A stretch of 41,322 bases of DNA, taken from contig CAZJPB010000001.1 of the NCBI GenBank assembly GCA_964547785.1, positions 1 through 41,322 on the forward strand. Reading direction: 5' to 3'. Each line of letters opens with the position of its first letter. Position 1 is the stretch's first letter. A model generated the notes under the pieces. The model ran no database searches, had not been told where the DNA came from, and was given only the letters and a program-made list of their open reading frames with translations. This DNA is from an uncultured Pseudomonadota bacterium (GTDB lineage: Bacteria > Babelota > Babeliae > Babelales > CAIQNR01). Of this stretch, positions 2,160 through 41,322 are shown piece after piece. Made by a program: the position numbers and the translations under genes.

Positions 2160-4489
2160 CGAATGCGCACTCCTAAACCATGCACTGCTTTTTCAACAGC
2201 TAATTGAACTTCTATCAACATATCTTTCGTAACCGATTGCTCTTCGTCTTGCACAAAATATCGAAACGTAACTGATTTTTCATCCTGCCATTCAGGTCGC
2301 TGAAAAACATCTTGCAACTGAACTTCTTTAATCAATCGATGCGCTAACGCAATCGTCATTTGTAATGTTTCAACCGAATACGAAAGTGGCGTCATCATGC
2401 TTATATCGAGATAACTTCCTTGATATTTAGAAAAAGGAACAAATCGTTTTTCAGCCTGTTTATGTTCGAGCACATATGTCGCATCAAATTCAAAAGCCCA
2501 CGCATGGCCACCACCTAATCCATGCATGATGGCTCCATTGATCATACCGACTTTGCCAACAATGGTATCCTGTGAAATAATATCAGCAACTTGATACGCA
2601 TGCGCCCACAAAGGTTTTTGTAATGATTTTTTTAAAGTAATTTTTATACCGCACAAAGCGTACAAATCTTTTAAAAGATCAGCCTGCTTATAAAAATCAA
2701 TTTCATTTTTTCGCTGATACAGAATGCCTGCTATCTTTTTTTGTTCAATAACTTTTGATTGCGCAGGATCGGTATGCCACGCACGACCATATTCAAAGAA
2801 AGCAGCCTGTTCATGCTTTGCTGCAATCTCATCAACATTTTTAAGCAAAGGAATAACGAGCGAATCGACTAATGTTGTCGCTTGTTCAGAAAGTGGATGC
2901 GCAATTTCTACGGGCAATACAATATTCCAATCTATTTTTTTTAAAAAATCATTATCTAAAAGTGCGTAATTATAAACCTCTTGCATTTTGCCCGTCACTG
3001 CCAAAAACTGTTTTATTGCGTAGAGTCGAGATTGCCAAGCATCTACAAAAACTTTTTTTGCAACTACTGGTAATTTTTCGGGGATATGTTCGTAACCATA
3101 CAAACGACCAACTTCTTCAACAATATCTTCTTTGATTTTTATATCTTTAGTTGCTCGATACGATGGAACCGTGATCGTAAATGCTTGATCATCATTTTTT
3201 TTGGTGACAATAACTTTGTAATGGGCTGATTCCAAAATAGTTTTAATGTCATCTTTTTTAAACGTAATGCCCAAGCGATCTTCTATAAAACTTTGGGTTA
3301 TATTGATTACAATAGGTTTTACCAATGAACCAATCGCAACACCTGATGGTACACTATCTTTTGCAATACCATCTTGTATCAAGAGTTGCGCAAATCGCTT
3401 GAGCCCTTGCAATGCCTGCTCTGGATCAAGTTCTTTTTCAAAACGCGCTGAACTTTCTGATCGCAATTTATGAAAACATGATGATCTTCGTATAGAGCCA
3501 CCACTAAATGTTGCCGCTTCAACCAACAATGAATCTGTTGTTGTGCTAACTCCAGAAGCCATGCCCCCTTTGATACCAGCCAAGGCTAAAGCCTGCGTAT
3601 CATTAGCTATCACGATATCTGTTTCTTGCAACGTAAGATGTTCGTTATTCAAAACAATAAGTTGCTCTCCATTCTTTGCTTTGCGAGGACCTATATATTT
3701 TGAAACTTTTTGAGCATCGAATGCGTGCAATGGTTGACCAATATCAAACATAACGTAATTAGTTGCATCAACAACATAATCTATCGGTCTTTGTCCAACG
3801 CGTGACAATCTAAAACCCATCCATAAAACTGAAGGGCTCAACATACTATTTTTGTAATAAAGCATCGAAAAAAAAGACACTTCTTGTGTATCGATGCTTA
3901 ACGTAAAAGGGAATGCTTGCGTTGCCTGATATTCTTTTTCGTATTGTTCTATTGATATCGGTGCAAAAAAATCATCTTCTGATCGTAATTTTGTTTTTAA
4001 AAATGGTGCGACTTCGCGCGCAAAACCTCTATGGCTCCACAAATCCGGACGGTGCGTAATAGACTTATTATCAATATCAATGATAACATCAGTTGTTTCG
4101 ATTTTTTTACGCCATGAACCATGTTCTAACAATGATTGCTCTAAAGCAAATACGCCTACCAATCCTTCTTTTTCGATATATATATCGCTGTACAAAAGCC
4201 ATGAATAAAGAGATCCTTCTTTTTTGACAAAATAGATCGCACTCATAATAGCATCTGAACGGAATGGCAGACTTATTGTTTGTCTAATTTCTGGTACAAA
4301 AAACGTGATTGAATTTTCTGATATCTCTTGAACCTTTCCTGCATACCACGATCCAAGATCTAAAGAATATTCAGTTGTTGTCTCAATTTCTGCAACTTTA
4401 GTATTAAAATGATGCACAAGTGCCTGCAGATCAAGAGCGTCCCAAGCAATACTGAGATGATCACAAACCCAGCGTAATGATAATTTCAT
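2156..4489 (-). CDS. pheT: phenylalanine--tRNA ligase beta subunit
   Basis: 777-aa ORF with PheT-like B3/B4 and B5 regions ([39 protein letters not shown]) and a C-terminal FDX-ACB-like domain. No pheS is adjacent. Confidence 0.95.
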
Positions 4490-4634: not shown

Positions 4635-5546
4635 ATGGCTGGAAAAATACTTTTATTTTATAAATATATAAAACTAGAAAACCCGCAAGAAATAGCTGAC
4701 TGGCAAAGAAAACTTTGCCTCTCTTTAGAGCTTAAAGGTAGAATAATTCTTGCTTGCGAAGGAATTAATGGTACTGTTGGCGGATCAGAAGAAGCTACAA
4801 AAAAGTATATCGAGGCCATGGAAGCGCACCCTTTATTTACCAATATTGATTTTAAAGACGCTGCCGGCAGTGCAGCACATTTCCCGCGCCTTCGCATCAT
4901 GGTTAAAAAAGAAATTGTAAATCTTGGCATCGATCCAGAAAAGCTAACCATCAAAGACACGGGCCAGTATCTCACGCCGCAAGAAGCTCACGAACTCATG
5001 AATCAAGCACCTGAAGATCTTGTGATCCTTGATACACGCAATGATTACGAAACAGCAATCGGAACATTTACCAATGCCATCGCACCGAACACTCGTTATT
5101 TCAGAGAATTCCCTGCATATATCGACAAAAATCTTGATCTTTTTAAAGACAAGCAAGTGCTTATGACCTGCACAGGCGGCGTTCGCTGTGAACGTGCATC
5201 TGCGTATGTAAAGCTCAAAGGCGTTGCTAAAAATGTTATGCATCTTAAAGGCGGTATTCATCGCTATATCGAGCAATATCCAGATGGCCACTTTAAGGGC
5301 TCAAATTATGTTTTTGATGCGCGTATTTCTCACGCTGTTTCTAATGATCTTTTAAGCGAATGCAACCTTTGCAAAACAGCAACTGATTATTACGAAAATT
5401 GCAAAAATGCGTTTTGCAATAAACAATTCCTTGTCTGCGCGTCTTGTAAAGATGCATTTGGACAATCATGCAGTGTAAGTTGCGTTGAACTTATTAAAAA
5501 TAATAAAGTTTCTGTACGCACAAAAGAAGCTCGTATCGCTGCATAA
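4635..5546 (+). CDS. trhO: rhodanese-domain tRNA uridine(34) hydroxylase (UPF0176/YceA family)
   Basis: N-terminal FYKY...GRIILACEGINGTV and the rhodanese active-site loop CTGGVRCE. Cys-rich C-terminal tail. GAGGAA RBS lies upstream of the ATG. Confidence 0.85.
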   Translation: MAGKILLFYKYIKLENPQEIADWQRKLCLSLELKGRIILACEGINGTVGGSEEATKKYIEAMEAHPLFTNIDFKDAAGSAAHFPRLRIMVKKEIVNLGIDPEKLTIKDTGQYLTPQEAHELMNQAPEDLVILDTRNDYETAIGTFTNAIAPNTRYFREFPAYIDKNLDLFKDKQVLMTCTGGVRCERASAYVKLKGVAKNVMHLKGGIHRYIEQYPDGHFKGSNYVFDARISHAVSNDLLSECNLCKTATDYYENCKNAFCNKQFLVCASCKDAFGQSCSVSCVELIKNNKVSVRTKEARIAA

Positions 5547-5560
5547 GCAAAAGGAAATTA

Positions 5561-6577
5561 ATGTCTTTCGTAATCCAAGAAAACATAGCCCTGCACGATA
5601 AAAATTGGTTCAGAACGGGCGGAGCCGCTCGTTATTTTTGCCAACCAAAAACAGGCTTAGAATTCCAAGAAGCTTTATTTTTTGCACAAACTCATGGTCT
5701 TGAAATTTTTGTTCTAGGCCAAGGAGCAAACGTACTCATAAGCGACGAAGGCTTTGATGGCCTTGTTATTCAGCCACAAAATACTGACTATACAAGACTA
5801 GAAGCAATTTCGAACACGATGCACTTAGTAACTTGCGGTGCTGGGCTTACGATGGATGCACTTATCGAAAAAACACTTGCTGATAGTCTTACCGGGCTTG
5901 AAGTTTTTAGCGGCATTCCGGGAACATTAGGCGGATCGACGTTTATTAACTTGCATTACTTTATTCATTTTTTAAGTGATTTTATTCATAAAGCTTCTGT
6001 CATCAAACGATCGACAGGCGAAATTTTTATGGTTGACGCTGCATGGTTCACATTTGGATACAATCAATCAACACTCATGAATCATGAGTATTACGTTATA
6101 TCAGTAACACTCAAACTAAAAAAATCTAGCGATACCGAAGTTGCTTACGCGCAAGGCAGGCGCTACGAAATCATCCGTCATCGCAATTCACGATATCCAA
6201 CGGCCAATACATGCGGAAGTTTTTTTAGAAATTTTCACGAAGACGAAGTCTCTTTAATTTCTAACAATAGAAAAATGATTTTTATAGCATTCTATCTTGA
6301 TAAAATCGGCGTTAAAGGCGTTCAAGAAAAAGGTGGTGCAAAAGTTTCGTGGCAACATGCTAATATGCTCGTCAACACAGGAACAGCAACATCGCAAGAT
6401 ATTATTGATCTAGCGCGCACTTTACAAATAAAGGTCTATCGTGAATTTGGTATTTTGCCGCAACCAGAATGTCTTTTGATTGGCTTTAAAACGTATCCTT
6501 TAGTAACGGCTTACGAACTTTCCTTGCTGCAACAGTCGCCAACACTGAATCACTCTGCCCATCAGAAAACCACTTAA
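5561..6577 (+). CDS. murB: UDP-N-acetylenolpyruvoylglucosamine reductase
   Basis: MurB-like FAD-binding N-terminus (NWFRTGGAARYF, FVLGQGANVLISDEGFDGLVI) and C-terminal region (GSFFRN, QHANMLVN). AAAGGAAA RBS. Confidence 0.9.
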   Translation: MSFVIQENIALHDKNWFRTGGAARYFCQPKTGLEFQEALFFAQTHGLEIFVLGQGANVLISDEGFDGLVIQPQNTDYTRLEAISNTMHLVTCGAGLTMDALIEKTLADSLTGLEVFSGIPGTLGGSTFINLHYFIHFLSDFIHKASVIKRSTGEIFMVDAAWFTFGYNQSTLMNHEYYVISVTLKLKKSSDTEVAYAQGRRYEIIRHRNSRYPTANTCGSFFRNFHEDEVSLISNNRKMIFIAFYLDKIGVKGVQEKGGAKVSWQHANMLVNTGTATSQDIIDLARTLQIKVYREFGILPQPECLLIGFKTYPLVTAYELSLLQQSPTLNHSAHQKTT

Positions 6578-7398: not shown

Positions 7399-7776
7399 TT
7401 AAGCAGACAGTCCGCCGCCCAAAACAGCTGCCCAAGCCAATACACCAACAGCTCCCGAAACAAGAGATGCTCCAAAAAGATTACTTCCTGGCCTTCCTGT
7501 ATGAATACTTGCAGTACTTAAAGTATTATGCATAGCGACATGAGCAATTCCTGCACACAAAAATGGTATTTTGAAAATTGAATCTCTTAACAAACAACTT
7601 GCTCCTAAACAAAGTCCTGGAATTATTGCTGCTGAAGTAAAATGAGTAGCCTTTTCTGCGCAAGTTGAACTAACACCTTTCGGCCAGAAATAATTTTTCA
7701 TCGCAGCGACACTTGCGTTCACATAACTCTGAACACACAATAAGCTTAAAAAAGCTCCAATTTTTATATATTTCAT
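7399..7776 (-). CDS. small signal-peptide membrane protein, tandem paralog B
   Basis: 125 aa, paralog of 7018-7368. Gly/Ala-rich hydrophobic C-terminus. Confidence 0.6.
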   Translation of the reverse strand: MKYIKIGAFLSLLCVQSYVNASVAAMKNYFWPKGVSSTCAEKATHFTSAAIIPGLCLGASCLLRDSIFKIPFLCAGIAHVAMHNTLSTASIHTGRPGSNLFGASLVSGAVGVLAWAAVLGGGLSA

Positions 7777-7882
7777 TTTTTTCCTTTTACTTATATAGAA
7801 TATTTACTATTAGTCATTTTATTATAAATAAAAGGGTTTGTCAAATGCGAAAAATAAAAAGTTAAGCTTGGATATTTGTTTT

Positions 7883-8650: not shown

Positions 8651-8832
8651 ACTCTCGTCATCCTCAGGGAGCAATGCGACCGCAAGGATCCAGACTTCGA
8701 AAGTTTTTTTAAAAATTATTAACTTTTTTATTTCTAAACTAACTGCTTTCTGTTATAAAAATCACACCATAGCTATTACAAAACAACAACTGGATCCTTG
8801 CGGTCGCGCTGCTCCCTGAGGATGACGAGAGT
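8651..8832. repeat. GC-rich palindromic element, diverged family member (E1)
   Basis: The 43-bp arms 8651-8693 and 8790-8832 are inverted repeats with 2 mismatches. The arm termini (tcgtcatcct...aggatcca) are shared with the elements at 35561 and 41029. The 96-bp AT-rich interior makes a strong GC contrast with the arms. Confidence 0.85.
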
Positions 8833-11708: not shown

Positions 11709-11774
11709 AAAAAAAAAGAGCCACTTTAAATAAACAAGCAACTCTTATTTTTCATCATTACGCTCTTTTTTTTA
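11709..11774. repeat. conserved 3'-flank module, copy R2 (degenerate hairpin)
   Basis: aaaaaaaaagagccactttaaataaacaagcaactcttatttttcatcattacgctctttttttt. The second half is identical to R1. The hairpin stem is weakened. Confidence 0.85.
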
Positions 11775-12898: not shown

Positions 12899-12963
12899 TT
12901 AAAAAATAAGAGCCACTTTTTTACAAGCAGCTCTTATTTTTTAAAAATTATGCTCTTTTTTTA
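12899..12963. repeat. conserved 3'-flank module, copy R3
   Basis: aaaaaaaataagagccacttttttacaagcagctcttattttttaaaaattatgctcttttttt. The hairpin is identical to R1. Confidence 0.9.
12906..12942. terminator. rho-independent terminator hairpin downstream of P3
   Basis: Stem ataagagc (12906-12913) pairs with gctcttat (12930-12937), flanked by an A-run and a T-run. Confidence 0.55.
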
Positions 12964-26279: not shown

Positions 26280-28124
26280 TTATTCAACGGTAACTGATTT
26301 TGCAAGGTTTCGCGGGCGATCGATTGAGCAACCTTTAACTTTTGCAATTGCGTACATTAACAATTGCATAATGCCTGTCATTTGAATAATGCCAAAATGA
26401 TGTTCCGTTTTTGGAAGCACAATTGCATGATCTGCAAGGTCTTTGAGTTCCTGTTGCCCTTCAAAAACAAATGCTAAAATGTGTCCCTTGCGCGCTTTGA
26501 TTTCTTGCGCGCTTGAAACTAACTTTTGATAAATGATCGGATCAGGATGAGAAAAAATACAGACAGGTGTATGCTCATCAATAAGTGCCAAAGGACCATG
26601 TTTTAGTTCGCCTGCAGGATATGCTTGAGAAAAAATATACGCTATTTCTTTAAGTTTTAATGCTGCTTCTAGCGCAAAAGGATAGCTGCTATGCCTTCCT
26701 AAAAAAATAAAATTTGCATAACGCGCATACAAAGGCGCCAAAACATCAAAAATATATTCTTTATAAGCAACAAGATTATTTTCTAAAAACTCACCTGCTA
26801 ACAATAATGCATCCTGTTCATGTTCAAATTGATTTTTATCAATAATACCACGTTCTAATGCAATCTTTTGAGCTAACCAATAGAGAGAAACGATTTGTGT
26901 GGTGAATGCTTTTGTTGATGCAACGGCCATCTCTGGGCCTGCATACGTCAATAAAACGCCATCAGCTTCGCGCGCTAATGAACTAGAAAGAACATTTGTT
27001 ACGGCTAATATTTTTTGATTATATTTTTTTAAAAATCGAGCGATTTCTAACGTATCTGCTGTCTCTCCAGACTGAGAAACCAAAATATATACTATTTTTT
27101 CTCGAGGGAAAAAAGTGCGATACCTAAATTCAGAAGCTAAGGCCGCTGTTGTCGGAATAGCAACATGTTCTTCGAAAAAAAATTCAGCTATCCTGCCTGC
27201 ATGCCACGACGTTCCGCAACCAATAATTTTTATAGCATCGATATTTTTAAAAAAATCGCCTGAAAAACCGATTGTGGTAAAAAACGAATCTTGCATATTT
27301 TGATAATGCGCAATTGTTTTATAAATAGCTGATTTTTGTTCGTAAATTTCTTTAAGCATAAAATGTTCATAGCCATCTTTTTCTGATGCTATCCACACTT
27401 TATCAAGAAATTGAACGGTAAGTCTAAGTGGTGTATTAAAAAAATCGACTGCCTGAGCCTGCTCTTTTGAAATATAAACAATGGTATGCTCTGGAATAAA
27501 AATAACTTTTTCTACTAATCCAGAAAACGCGAGCACATCGGACGCTACAAACATTTCGTTATCGCCAACGCCGATGCACAAAGGAGAATTTTTTCGCAAT
27601 GCAATCATAACATCCGGAAAATCTTCCATCATAATCACGATTGCATAAGCACCAACAAGACGCGATGCGAGTATCTGCGCAGCATATCGATAATCTTGAT
27701 GTTCGGTTAATGCTTGCTCAAAAAGATGGGCTATGATTTCGCTATCAGTTTGCGAAGAAAAAATATGCCCTAAAGCTTCTAGTTCAGCTTTTAAAGCAAC
27801 ATGATTTTCTATAATACCATTATGAACGACTGCAATTTTTTTTTTACAATCTAAATGAGGATGAGCATTGTTTTCGGAAGGAATGCCATGCGTTGACCAA
27901 CGAGTATGACCTATACCAACAAATCCATCAACAGCATTTTTATCTAAAGCAGCTTCTAACGAAGCTATGCCGCCAACCGTTTTTACGCATACAAGTTTTT
28001 GAGAATTTTTTTCGATACACGCAAAACCAGAAGAGTCATAGCCACGATACTCTAAACGAGAAAGCCCCTGCATCACCAAAGCACAACTTTTACGATGTCC
28101 TATATAACCAACAACGCTACACAT
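26280..28124 (-). CDS. glmS: glutamine--fructose-6-phosphate aminotransferase (isomerizing)
   Basis: 614 aa. N-terminal Cys nucleophile (MCSVVGYIG), GHTRWSTHG, two SIS domains, C-terminal ...AKSVTVE. Confidence 0.95.
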   Translation of the reverse strand: MCSVVGYIGHRKSCALVMQGLSRLEYRGYDSSGFACIEKNSQKLVCVKTVGGIASLEAALDKNAVDGFVGIGHTRWSTHGIPSENNAHPHLDCKKKIAVVHNGIIENHVALKAELEALGHIFSSQTDSEIIAHLFEQALTEHQDYRYAAQILASRLVGAYAIVIMMEDFPDVMIALRKNSPLCIGVGDNEMFVASDVLAFSGLVEKVIFIPEHTIVYISKEQAQAVDFFNTPLRLTVQFLDKVWIASEKDGYEHFMLKEIYEQKSAIYKTIAHYQNMQDSFFTTIGFSGDFFKNIDAIKIIGCGTSWHAGRIAEFFFEEHVAIPTTAALASEFRYRTFFPREKIVYILVSQSGETADTLEIARFLKKYNQKILAVTNVLSSSLAREADGVLLTYAGPEMAVASTKAFTTQIVSLYWLAQKIALERGIIDKNQFEHEQDALLLAGEFLENNLVAYKEYIFDVLAPLYARYANFIFLGRHSSYPFALEAALKLKEIAYIFSQAYPAGELKHGPLALIDEHTPVCIFSHPDPIIYQKLVSSAQEIKARKGHILAFVFEGQQELKDLADHAIVLPKTEHHFGIIQMTGIMQLLMYAIAKVKGCSIDRPRNLAKSVTVE

Positions 28125-35488: not shown

Positions 35489-35560
35489 ATTGCTGATAAT
35501 ATAAATTTCTTCAATTCAAACATAAAAGTATTAATAATTTTTTGAAAAAATCTCGAATTC

Positions 35561-35839
35561 TCGTCATCCTGAGGCGCGATCCAAGCGCCGTGAGGATCCA
35601 TCAGCCGTCGCGCACATGCGCTATGGCCAGATGTCGCAGCATAGAAAAGCGAAGATGGACAGAATTTATAAAGCATAGTTTTTGATGTACTGTATCATCA
35701 TTATAATATTTTTATAATTGATTCGATTGCGTTGTTTTCTGAAAATAATAATTTGAAAAAATAATCTATAATCATTAGTTTTTTAATTCCAGTAACGCCT
35801 GGATCCTCACGGCGCTTGGATCGCGCCTCAGGATGACGA
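35561..35839. repeat. GC-rich palindromic element E2 (MITE-like / inverton-like), perfect 40-bp terminal inverted repeats
   Basis: tcgtcatcctgaggcgcgatccaagcgccgtgaggatcca (35561-35600) is the exact reverse complement of 35800-35839. A ~68-bp GC-rich extension follows the left arm, then a ~130-bp AT-rich core. A nearly identical arm plus extension lies at 41029. Confidence 0.9.
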
Positions 35840-35893
35840 TCAAAGAGACAAATCATTATTTTGAAACTAAAATTAAATATAAAAAGGAGTTTT

Positions 35894-40917: not shown

Positions 40918-41028
40918 AGAAAATTTTTGATACCGAGAGTGTTGATATTTTCTTGTAATTAATAACCGCCAAAGATTATCAGCTTAAAAATAAAAAGTTA
41001 ATAATTTTTAAAAAAAAATTTCGAATGT

Positions 41029-41322
41029 TCGTCATCCTGAGGCGCGATCCAAGCGCCGTGAGGATCCATCAGCCGTCGCGCAAAGCGCTATGGCCAGATG
41101 TCGCGTCGTAGTGAAATGAAGACGGACAGAATTTACTGAAATTAAAAATTTAATGATTATAAAAAGAATAATCAAAATTTTACCCAAATCTTTAATTATT
41201 CTTCTGGAACAATATAATTGAATCAATTGTAAAAAAATATAACGTGATGTGATGATACAGTAAAAAAATTGCTTTATAAATCCTGGATCCTCACGGCGCT
41301 TGGATCGCGCCTCAGGATGACG
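41029..41322. repeat. GC-rich palindromic element E3 (second copy of the E2 type; right arm cut by the window end)
   Basis: The left arm 41029-41068 is identical to E2's. The right arm 41284-41322 is the inverse copy. The extension is ~85% similar to E2's by eye. The AT-rich core is homologous to the E2 core but in reverse orientation. Confidence 0.9.

What the first reader, a model, noticed from the sequence alone, without database searches (positions are those of the whole stretch)
41029..41322. Second copy of the element has its AT-rich core inverted relative to the GC-rich extension
The left arm is identical to E2, and the extension is closely similar to E2.

The AT-rich core aligns with the E2 core only after reverse complementation. 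I aligned the reverse complement of 41131-41283 against 35661-35799 by hand. Colinear shared blocks are:
- tttataaagca
- tactgtatcatca
- aattgattc
- tataatcatta
- tttttaatt
- cagtaa

In E2 the order is arm, extension, tttataaagca...cagtaa, arm. In E3 the order is arm, extension, ttactg...tgctttataaa, arm.

Recombination between the 40-bp arms would carry the extension with it, so it cannot produce this rearrangement. An internal ~150-bp segment has therefore flipped, or the extension has moved to the other side. The breakpoints fall at short A/T motifs: gaattta|taaagc versus gaattta|ctgaaa.

The cores have diverged (roughly 70% identity by eye), so this looks like an old or recurrent event. 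It would fit a family of invertible modules.
Basis: seen in the sequence. Interest (0 to 1): 0.65.

Follow-up and report, generated by a model that had tools for sequence, protein, structure and literature searches.

The report
Hairpin-bounded mosaic repeat, extension swaps sides
Two copies of a small intergenic repeat really do differ in how their AT-rich middle sits relative to a GC-rich add-on, but this is because the optional 60-base add-on sits beside the opposite end hairpin, not because the middle flips; the repeats look like relatives of the hairpin-bounded mosaic repeats of Neisseria.

Summary
The E3 core aligns with the E2 core only as its reverse complement (blastn E=4e-14; local score 85 against 23.6±3.7 for shuffles). 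Arm plus extension align on the same strand at 91%.

The "flipping core" interpretation is not the best one. A census of 31 distinct arm pairs from the same organism's metagenome contigs shows a modular element: outer flank A, 40-nt GC-rich arm, optional 60-nt extension, AT-rich core, inverted arm, outer flank B.
- Most copies have no extension.
- Where present (8 loci), the extension always lies directly 3' of an arm. It is on the A side in 3 loci and on the other side in 5, E3 among them.
- The E2/E3-type core keeps one fixed orientation relative to the A/B flanks in 15 of 15 copies.
- E3's core is 95% identical to an extension-less copy. Its extension is 100% identical to extensions on either side of much more diverged cores.

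The arms resemble the NTS/SRM hairpins recognised by Ssn single-strand nucleases. One contig carries a 96-aa GIY-YIG gene between two such arms. The units resemble Neisseria mosaic elements (dRS3-RS-dRS3).

No recombinase, above-chance promoter signal or mixed orientation was found. The case is ordinary in kind and a new variant in detail.

The parts
35496..35560 (+). E2 outer flank, type A (AT-rich, diverged copy of TATAGCATAACGCCATCAGCTTAGAAATAAAAAAGTTAATAATTTTTAAAAAAATTCTCGAATTC)
   Evidence: It aligns with 24 other type-A flanks. GC is 15%.
35561..35600 (+). E2 left arm: GC-rich, NTS/SRM-like hairpin (CGTC-ATCCT..GGCGC..GCGCC..AGGAT-CCA)
   Evidence: As single-stranded DNA it folds at -8.2 kcal/mol, z=-2.3. 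47 of 62 arms are identical to the consensus.
35601..35661 (+). E2 extension: optional arm-attached module of two hairpins; the most diverged of the eight arm-pair copies found
35662..35799 (+). E2 core, type C1, '+' orientation (GAATTTATAAAGCA ... CAGTAACGCC)
   Evidence: Alignment of 18 C1 cores. GC is about 21%.
35800..35839 (-). E2 right arm (inverted copy of the left arm)
   Evidence: I3: 40 nt, 100% complementary.
35840..35885 (-). E2 outer flank, type B (weak, diverged copy of TCTCGAAGATGAAGCATTATTTTTAAGCTGAAGGTTTTTAGCTATA)
   Evidence: Read by eye against the type-B alignment. The score is low (22), so the assignment is tentative.
40964..41028 (+). E3 outer flank, type A
41029..41068 (+). 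E3 left arm (NTS/SRM-like hairpin)
41069..41128 (+). E3 extension (consensus form; 100% identical to the extensions of L116 and L135:12810)
41129..41283 (-). E3 core, type C1, '-' orientation (reads TTACTG ... TGCTTTATAAATCC on the + strand); 95% identical over aligned columns to the core of the extension-less copy L126
41284..41322 (-). E3 right arm, cut by the window end. In the contig that continues (L113/L133) it is followed by a second type-A flank.
8651..8832 (.). E1: related unit with a different arm subtype (CGTCATCCTCAGGGAGCAATGCGACCGCAAGGATCC) and no extension. Its interior begins with an inverted type-A flank module.
   Evidence: (I2, I6, I10, D10).

Best explanation
E2 and E3 are two copies of a dispersed, non-coding, modular repeat of an AT-rich uncultured bacterium found in freshwater and wastewater metagenomes.

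The canonical unit has five parts:
- an outer AT-rich flank of type A
- a 40-nt GC-rich hairpin arm
- an AT-rich core of 125-160 nt, of several families, with its own 7-nt inverted ends (GGATTTA)
- the inverted arm
- an outer flank of type B

The arms are oriented hairpins of the NTS/SRM kind. Those are the repeats bound and cut nearby, in single-stranded DNA, by small GIY-YIG 'Ssn' nucleases. The whole unit is built like a Neisseria intergenic mosaic element (hairpin, spacer, hairpin).

The GC-rich extension is a separate, optional 60-nt module of two hairpins. It is always attached to the 3' side of an arm. Because the two arms are inverted copies of each other, it can sit at either end.
- E2 has it at the arm next to the TTTATAAAGCA end of the core.
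- E3 has it at the arm next to the CAGTAA end.
- That makes the core look inverted relative to the extension, although the core itself did not flip.

Shown: the module structure, the two positions of the extension, and the fixed core-to-flank orientation.

Inferred: how the extension got there. My preferred route is exchange of end modules between dispersed copies by recombination or gene conversion. It would use the identical arm, or the shared outer terminus, on one side and the short GGATTTA motif on the other. On this route E3 is a chimera. Its left end (flank A, arm, extension) is of the L116 type, and its body (core, arm, flank A) is of the L126 type. That would also explain why E3 has type-A flanks at both ends.

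Also inferred: the Ssn-like nuclease encoded between two such arms in contig L145 maintains or spreads the arms.
For: Census: there are 31 distinct arm pairs. The extension is present in 8 loci. In all of these, and in two loci with other arm subtypes, it directly follows GGATCCA of an arm in the same polarity.
- A side: E2, L116, L150.
- Other side: E3, L135:8262, L135:12770, L117, L141.
- No copy has two extensions.

Core orientation: all 15 C1 copies with one A and one B flank have flank A at the TTTATAAAGCA end.

Unequal divergence:
- 47 of 62 arms are identical to the consensus.
- Extensions are 83-100% identical, mean 94%.
- C1 cores are on average 84% identical over aligned columns.
- E3's extension is 100% identical to those of L116 (A side) and L135:12810 (other side).
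- E3's core is closest to the extension-less L126 (95%) and L135:2174 (90%).
- Presence of the extension therefore does not follow core lineage.

Junctions are clean. Without the extension the sequence reads CCA|GGATTTA. With it, CCA|TCAGCC...GGACA|GGATTTA (L150) or GAATTTA (E2, E3).

The extension is structured. It forms two hairpins, with 87.5% of cells paired against 20-46% in slid controls. Three pairs show changes on both sides.

The arms resemble NTS in four respects: the same CGTC 5' flank, the AT..CC/GG..AT stem ends, a C directly after the palindrome, and the 3' CYRG. This compares with PMC11893778.

GIY-YIG link: a 96-aa single-domain GIY-YIG ORF (Pfam E=1e-14) lies between two arms in L145. 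Homologues in three unrelated MAGs are likewise bracketed by inverted GTCAT hairpins.

NIME-like traits: GC is 62% in the arms and about 20% in the cores, there are several core families, cores have short inverted ends, and arrays occur with mixed arm subtypes (PMC1797815).
Against: - The arms do not match the published degenerate SRM search sequence. They are 40 nt with a two-part stem, while that pattern allows 35 nt at most.
- L145 comes from the same metagenome assembly and has identical arms. It is not shown to belong to the same genome as the window.
- No empty site, target duplication or intermediate was found, so the route (conversion, insertion or loss) remains inference.
- E3 needs a change of outer flank under either reading, because it has type A on both sides.
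- A different core type is inverted relative to its flanks in one copy (L136). Inversion between arms has therefore happened at least once in the family.
- Read data could not test for mixed orientations at E2 or E3.
Confidence: 0.72

Rival explanations
1. The core is a programmed invertible segment, an inverton or phase-variable promoter. A site-specific recombinase acts at the short A/T-rich inverted ends, and E2 and E3 are the two states.
For: The core has 7-nt inverted ends, GGATTTA/TAAATCC. A conserved TATAAT lies inside many C1 cores. One C2-type core is inverted relative to its flanks (L136).
Against: - Orientation is fixed relative to the flanks in 15 of 15 C1 copies.
- Four other loci have the extension on the same side as E3 without any inversion relative to the flanks.
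- No recombinase was found among the ORFs scanned with Pfam in the window or the genes called on the E2 and E3 contigs.
- Promoter-like sites are at chance level: 2 against 2.1 expected, and 4 against 3.0.
- Most copies lie between gene 3' ends, where a promoter would serve nothing (38 of 48 sides).
- The E3 and E2 loci are identical in contigs of the public assembly, and six arm pairs assembled in both sets of public contigs are identical between the two.
- The cores are about 30% diverged.
Confidence: 0.04
2. The extension is itself a small mobile insertion. It targets the junction just 3' of an arm (GGATCCA^GGATTTA), which exists at both ends of every unit. E2 and E3 received independent insertions at opposite ends.
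For: - The insertion is a clean 60 nt, with intact GGATTTA after it in L150.
- It has short imperfect inverted ends (TCAGCCGTC / GACGGACAGA) and a possible CA duplication.
- It lies next to three different arm subtypes.
- It is 93-100% identical across copies with diverged cores, apart from E2's more diverged copy.
- It is structured, which would suit recognition as single-stranded DNA.
Against: - No free-standing copy away from an arm was found, apart from one degenerate fragment in L122.
- There is no candidate enzyme.
- Insertion alone does not explain E3's two type-A flanks.
- Eight copies are too few to define a target duplication.
Confidence: 0.17
3. The ancestral element carried the extension at both ends, as a long terminal inverted repeat of about 100 nt. 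E2 and E3 lost it from opposite ends, and most copies lost both.
For: The extension always has the same polarity relative to its arm, as a long inverted repeat would.
Against: - None of the 31 arm pairs has two extensions.
- Identical extensions sit beside cores that differ by 15-25%. That points to recent spread or homogenisation rather than old retention.
- Precise loss back to CCA|GGATTTA in 23 or more copies is unlikely.
Confidence: 0.05

Closest known systems
NTS / SRM hairpin repeats and their Ssn (GIY-YIG, cd10448) single-strand nucleases (Chenal et al. 2025, PMC11893778)
   Same: - Oriented hairpin with the same non-palindromic ends: CGTC-AT..CC stem ... GG..AT-CYRG.
- A C directly after the palindrome.
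- Tens of intergenic copies per genome.
- A gene of about 95 aa encoding a single-domain GIY-YIG protein, bracketed by an inverted pair of the hairpins (L145).
   Different: - The arms are 40 nt with a two-part stem and do not match the published degenerate SRM pattern.
- The arms are nearly invariant, while everything around them diverges.
- An extra 60-nt two-hairpin module can follow the hairpin.
- Nuclease activity and cd10448 membership were not tested.
Neisserial intergenic mosaic elements (dRS3-RS-dRS3; Bentley et al. 2007, PMC1797815)
   Same: - GC-richer inverted hairpin repeats flank AT-richer spacers of 50-150 bp.
- The spacers fall into many families, some with short inverted ends.
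- There is a GC wave along the unit.
- Units sometimes join into arrays with mixed modules.
- Module content varies between copies, as expected of recombination substrates.
   Different: - The organism and the hairpin sequence are different.
- Most copies here are single units with conserved outer flanks (A, B) ending in TATAGC, more like a MITE than the long arrays of Neisseria.
- No link to surface-protein genes was seen.
REP / BIME / REPIN repeats with RAYT (IS200/IS605-like) transposases
   Same: - Hairpin repeats in inverted pairs.
- Mosaic combinations with variable inter-hairpin motifs.
- Location at gene 3' ends.
- A gene for the cognate single-strand DNA enzyme flanked by the hairpins.
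   Different: The associated enzyme is a GIY-YIG nuclease, not a Y1 transposase, and no RAYT was seen. The spacing between the hairpins (125-230 nt) is much larger than in REPINs.
MITEs such as Correia elements
   Same: - Size of 300-420 bp with terminal inverted repeats.
- Many dispersed intergenic copies.
- Internal deletion and insertion variants.
   Different: No target duplication or empty site has been shown, and no transposase partner is known. Divergence is very uneven along the element.
Invertible promoters (fimS, Bacteroides invertons)
   Same: A short segment found in two orientations relative to a neighbouring sequence, with short inverted ends.
   Different: There is no recombinase, no promoter signal above chance and no mixed orientation at a locus. 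Orientation is fixed relative to the outer flanks.

Membership tests
SRM/NTS (Ssn-related motif) | Hairpin-forming semi-palindrome of 20-50 nt | tested here: met
   The arm folds as single-stranded DNA with ATCCT/AGGAT and GGCGC/GCGCC stems at -8.2 kcal/mol, z=-2.3; 4 of 200 shuffles fold as well.
SRM/NTS (Ssn-related motif) | Oriented, conserved non-palindromic flanks: 5' CGTC(AT) before the palindrome, and C then YRG after it | tested here: met
   The arm reads CGTC-ATCCT...AGGAT-CCAG. NTS reads CGTCATTCCCGCGMAVGCGGGAATCYRG. Sequence; NTS consensus; functional importance of these bases.
SRM/NTS (Ssn-related motif) | Match to the published degenerate search sequence HGTCWYN(0-2)YYVSBRHN(0-5)WNVSBRGN(0-2)RNCYNB | tested here: not met
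The only match in the window is an unrelated site at 28034.
SRM/NTS (Ssn-related motif) | Many intergenic copies per genome | tested here: met
   At least 31 arm pairs plus solitary arms occur on 39 contigs. Arm depth is about 30-100 times the unique depth in four metagenomes. Copies lie between genes.
SRM/NTS (Ssn-related motif) | An ssn gene (single-domain GIY-YIG of about 94 aa) flanked by the motif on both sides | tested here: met
   L145:1933-2423 reads arm, 96-aa GIY-YIG ORF (PF01541, E=1e-14), inverted arm. It is from the same assembly with identical arms, but is not proven to be the same genome as the window.
Ssn nuclease family | Membership of CDD family cd10448 and site-specific cleavage of single-stranded DNA upstream of the hairpin | not testable with these tools
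   No CDD library or assay is available here. NCBIfam gives only sub-threshold GIY-YIG-type hits, and no solved relative was found.
NIME (dRS3-RS-dRS3) | Inverted hairpin repeats flanking 50-150-bp spacers of multiple families, with a GC peak and trough pattern | tested here: met
   Inner segments, extension included, are 125-229 nt in the ordinary units, longer where other sequence is nested (L141, 289 nt) or a gene is carried (L145, 411 nt). They comprise the C1 and C2 families and at least three further sequence types. GC is 62% in the arms and 19-22% in the cores. Cores carry 7-nt inverted ends.
NIME (dRS3-RS-dRS3) | The dRS3 sequence ATTCCC-N8-GGGAAT and occurrence in Neisseria | tested here: not met
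   The arm stem is ATCCT/AGGAT with a 23-nt interior. The host is an AT-rich bacterium (35.6% GC) from freshwater and wastewater metagenomes.
Inverton / invertible promoter | A site-specific recombinase gene nearby or in the genome acting on inverted repeats at the segment ends | tested here: not met
   No recombinase domain was found in the 20 window ORFs scanned with Pfam, nor among the genes called on the E2 and E3 contigs L153 and L113. Only 7-nt inverted ends are present.
Inverton / invertible promoter | Both orientations present at one locus in a population | tested here: inconclusive
   The E3 and E2 loci are identical in contigs of the public assembly, and six arm pairs assembled in both sets of public contigs are identical between the two. 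Short-read contigs break at the arms, so minority forms cannot be seen.
Inverton / invertible promoter | A promoter inside the invertible segment | tested here: not met
   Promoter-like sites number 2 against 2.1 expected (E2) and 4 against 3.0 expected (E3).
MITE | Terminal inverted repeats, target-site duplication, and an autonomous partner sharing the ends | tested here: inconclusive
   The outer ends share TATAGC..TCAGCTTA.AAATAA in inverted orientation. No empty site or clear duplication was found. The only coding relative (L145) encodes a GIY-YIG nuclease, not a known transposase.
REP/BIME with RAYT | A Y1 (IS200/IS605-like) transposase flanked by the hairpins | not tested
   None appeared among the proteins scanned. 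The roughly 300 kb of related contigs were not scanned systematically.

The most novel reading that the evidence does not exclude
The 40-nt arms and the 60-nt extension may be two different single-strand-DNA recognition hairpins of an Ssn-type system. This system would actively reshuffle its own spacers by nuclease-initiated, copy-to-copy conversion that installs 'arm' or 'arm plus extension' cassettes at either end of a unit. That would make these repeats a working example of how NTS/NIME-like mosaics are built. The extension would be a new, separately mobile class of Ssn-related motif.
Probability: 0.15. Interest if true: 0.7.

Novelty: new variant of a known kind. Interest (0 to 1): 0.38.

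Why it matters
How NTS/SRM hairpins multiply, and how Neisseria-type mosaic elements are assembled, is still open; the 2025 Ssn paper only raises hypotheses. This family offers a clean, small system outside Neisseria for that question.
- The hairpin arms are nearly invariant.
- The spacers have diverged.
- An optional structured add-on has clearly been placed at either end of different copies.
- A candidate cognate nuclease gene sits between the same arms.

That makes module exchange directly testable. For genome annotation, it warns that apparent 'inversions' inside palindromic repeats can be side-swaps of an optional module.

Tried and rejected
- **Genome scan with a loose arm pattern.** It used the only genome-contig scan and returned 112 loci from many phyla, none with the extension or core. 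It did show that CGTCATCCTSAGG...AGGATCC hairpins are widespread, and by chance it brought in three GIY-YIG loci.
- **Laying Logan contigs of four metagenome runs on E2 and E3.** Contigs break at the arms and unique depth is only 3-6, so orientation heterogeneity could not be tested. The 'skips 60/61' joints are contigs of extension-less copies elsewhere, not excision at these loci.
- **Rfam.**
  - At gathering score it finds only a tRNA.
  - At E<=1 nothing matches E2.
  - E3 gives a sub-threshold MIR7533 hit on both strands (49 bits against a gathering score of 230). I read this as an artefact of any long hairpin.
- **Promoter and terminator scan.** Hits are at chance level.
- **PDB sequence search and NCBIfam for the GIY-YIG ORF.** Nothing useful came back.
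- **Organism identification.**
  - A search of papers for the assembly accessions found nothing.
  - The organism therefore remains unnamed.
- **Supplements of the Ssn paper.** None are held as text.
- **Exact-protein look-ups for the gene downstream of E2.**
  - Both failed.
  - The upstream gene worked.
- **Outer flanks A and B as gene-end or gene-start signals.** I rejected this. Both flank types face gene 3' ends about equally: A 20 of 25, B 18 of 23.
- **The extension as a ribozyme or known RNA.** There is no Rfam support.

Full report
**Observation**

The window holds three related palindromic units: E1 (8651-8832), E2 (35561-35839) and E3 (41029-41322, cut by the window end).
- The four arms of E2 and E3 are 39-40 nt and 100% identical or complementary.
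- Arm plus extension align on the same strand at 90.7% over 108 nt, E=3e-40.
- The AT-rich cores align only on opposite strands, at 70.6% over 160 columns, E=3.8e-14. The best same-strand hit has E=0.4.
- In a local alignment the reverse-strand score is 85. Dinucleotide shuffles give 23.6±3.7 with a maximum of 44, and 0 of 1000 reach 85. The forward score of 25 is at chance.

A public contig that is identical across the stretch compared continues past the window end (L113 = L133). E3's right arm there is followed by an AT-rich sequence that is the inverted copy of the sequence left of E3's left arm.

I scanned metagenome contigs with a 28-nt stretch of the arm. It returned 39 loci from two assemblies of the same organism, holding 37 arm pairs, of which 31 are distinct.

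Aligning the flanks shows that the repeat extends 46-65 nt outside the arms, with two flank types:
- Type A: TATAGCATAACGCCATCAGCTTAGAAATAAAAAAGTTAATAATTTTTAAAAAAATTCTCGAATTC.
- Type B: TATAGCTAAAAACCTTCAGCTTAAAAATAATGCTTCATCTTCGCGA.
- The two types share only their outer ends.

The canonical unit is flank A, arm, core, inverted arm, flank B. Cores fall into at least two families, C1 (which includes E2 and E3) and C2, plus several further sequence types. All begin and end with GGATTTA / TAAATCC. GC is 62% in the arms, 57% in the extension, and 15-22% in cores and flanks.

**The extension is optional and sits on either side**

Only 8 of the 31 distinct arm pairs carry the extension.
- In every case it directly follows GGATCCA of an arm in the same polarity. 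The junction reads CCA|TCAGCC...GGACA|GGATTTA, where copies without it read CCA|GGATTTA.
- Relative to the core and flanks, it is on the A side in E2, L116 and L150.
- It is on the opposite side in L135:8262, L135:12770, L117, L141 and E3.
- No copy has two extensions.
- Variants of the extension also follow two other arm subtypes (L143, L142).

All 15 C1 copies that have one A and one B flank carry flank A at the TTTATAAAGCA end of the core. The C1 core therefore does not flip freely. In E3 the right half (core, arm, flank A) is canonical. It is the left end that differs, reading flank A, arm, extension in place of flank B, arm.

**Unequal divergence**

- 47 of 62 arms are identical to the consensus, and all but one of the rest differ at one or two positions.
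- Extensions are 83-100% identical, mean 94%.
- C1 cores average 84% over aligned columns.
- E3's extension is 100% identical to that of L116 (A side) and of L135:12810 (other side).
- E3's core is closest to two extension-less copies, L126 at 95% and L135:2174 at 90%.

Presence of the extension therefore does not follow core lineage. It has been installed recently, or is homogenised together with the arms.

A single exchange would give E3's exact structure, including its two A flanks. It would join a left end of the L116 type (flank A, arm, extension) to a body of the L126 type at the GGATTTA motif. This is inference. An independent insertion of the extension 3' of the arm is the main alternative.

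**The extension is structured**

It folds into two hairpins. Across eight variants, 87.5% of cells pair, against 20-46% when partners are slid. Three pairs change on both sides, and one G-T pair is invariant. With so few sequences this is suggestive only.

**What the arms are**

Each arm is itself a hairpin with oriented ends, CGTC-ATCCT...AGGAT-CCAG.

One arm pair (L145) encloses a 96-aa single-domain GIY-YIG ORF (Pfam E=1e-14). Homologues of this ORF turned up in three unrelated MAG loci that had been fetched only for an arm-like pattern. In all three, the gene is bracketed by an inverted pair of GTCAT hairpins.

This is the published Ssn system (PMC11893778).
- The NTS repeat of Neisseria (CGTCATTCCCGCGMAVGCGGGAATCYRG) and the related SRM motifs flank genes for small GIY-YIG nucleases.
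- Those nucleases bind the hairpin in single-stranded DNA and cut a few nucleotides upstream.
- The bases just 5' of the palindrome, and the C after it, are critical.

The arms here share exactly those ends. They have a longer, two-part stem and fail the paper's literal degenerate pattern. I therefore call them SRM-like, a variant.

The unit as a whole matches the description of neisserial intergenic mosaic elements (PMC1797815). Those have inverted hairpin repeats around 50-150-bp spacers of many families, short inverted spacer ends, a GC wave, and dynamic module content. Arrays and units with mixed arm subtypes occur here too.

Both ends of the units mostly face gene 3' ends (38 of 48 sides), as REP/BIME repeats do.

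**Tests of the invertible-switch reading**

- No recombinase domain was found in the 20 window ORFs scanned with Pfam or among the genes called on the E2 and E3 contigs.
- Promoter-like sites are at chance level and there are no terminator-like sites.
- Rfam gives nothing real.
- The E3 and E2 loci are identical in contigs of the public assembly. Six arm pairs that were assembled in both sets of public contigs are identical between the two.
- Contigs from four metagenome runs break at the arms, so minority orientations could not be assessed.
- One C2 core (L136) is inverted relative to its A/B flanks. Recombination between the identical inverted arms would produce this. Rearrangement does happen over evolutionary time, but it carries everything between the arms with it and is not what separates E2 from E3.

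**Verdict**

A family of programmed invertible modules does not.

The elements are a new variant of a known kind: SRM/NTS-like hairpin-bounded mosaic repeats with a likely Ssn-type partner. Interest is moderate. The case is a tidy system for asking how such mosaics are assembled, but it is not a new principle.

Noticed in passing
L145:1933-2423 (metagenome contig JACCDG011806592.1): A 96-aa single-domain GIY-YIG ORF lies between two E2-type arms in inverted orientation, with type-B-like outer flanks. About 110 nt downstream, a third arm is followed by the same 40-nt AT-rich leader (GTTTTATAATGATTT..AAGTTATCTGATT) in front of another ORF.
   Followed up: partly
L013:~1000-1400, L068:~1500-2000, L086:~5250-5720 (genome-contig loci from unrelated MAGs): Homologues (47-52% identity) of the L145 GIY-YIG ORF are each bracketed by an inverted pair of GTCAT hairpins of a different sequence. 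This independently reproduces the published ssn-SRM association.
   Followed up: partly
window:8651-8832 (E1): This unit has a different arm subtype and its two arms differ at 2 positions. Its interior starts with an inverted type-A flank module, and a partial type-A module also lies outside the left arm. The left arm therefore sits in the middle of a longer AT-rich palindrome (AAAAAAACTTTCGAA ... TTCGAAAGTTTTTTT).
   Followed up: partly
L128:~5100-5440 = L137; L143:5330-5850; L141:2773-3141: These are arrays and nested units mixing arm subtypes. In L128/L137 the unit next to the E2-type arm has a left arm of one subtype and a right arm of another. In L143 an arm plus extension variant abuts a complete second unit. 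In L141 an arm of the third subtype is nested inside an E2-type unit.
   Followed up: partly
window:10692-10732 and 12901-12941 (also 11709-11749): Identical 41-nt palindromic sequences (AAAAAATAAGAGCCACTTTTTTACAAGCAGCTCTTATTTTT) follow members of a tandem family of three paralogous genes on the minus strand (about 10.7-13.7 kb, repeats D2-D9). They look like shared terminators of duplicated genes.
   Followed up: no
window:7092-7379 and 7500-7787: Two adjacent small ORFs (116 and 125 aa, minus strand) are 78% identical at the DNA level over 288 nt, a local tandem duplication.
   Followed up: no
C1 cores, e.g. L122:1981-2208, L121:3840-4064: A TATAAT, preceded at 16-17 nt by TTRYTG, is conserved in most C1 cores and points towards the CAGTAA end. 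In E2 a 7-nt deletion shortens the spacer. The generic promoter scan on E2 and E3 was at chance level.
   Followed up: partly
L113:3822-4134 (E3 with flanks): Rfam MIR7533, a microRNA precursor family, scores 49 and 47 bits on the two strands against a gathering score of 230. I take this as an artefact of a long perfect hairpin.
   Followed up: yes
L153:3594-3785 and 3810-3965 (= E2 in the public assembly): The public gene calls place two small ORFs (63 and 51 aa, minus strand) inside the repeat. They are probably spurious.
   Followed up: no
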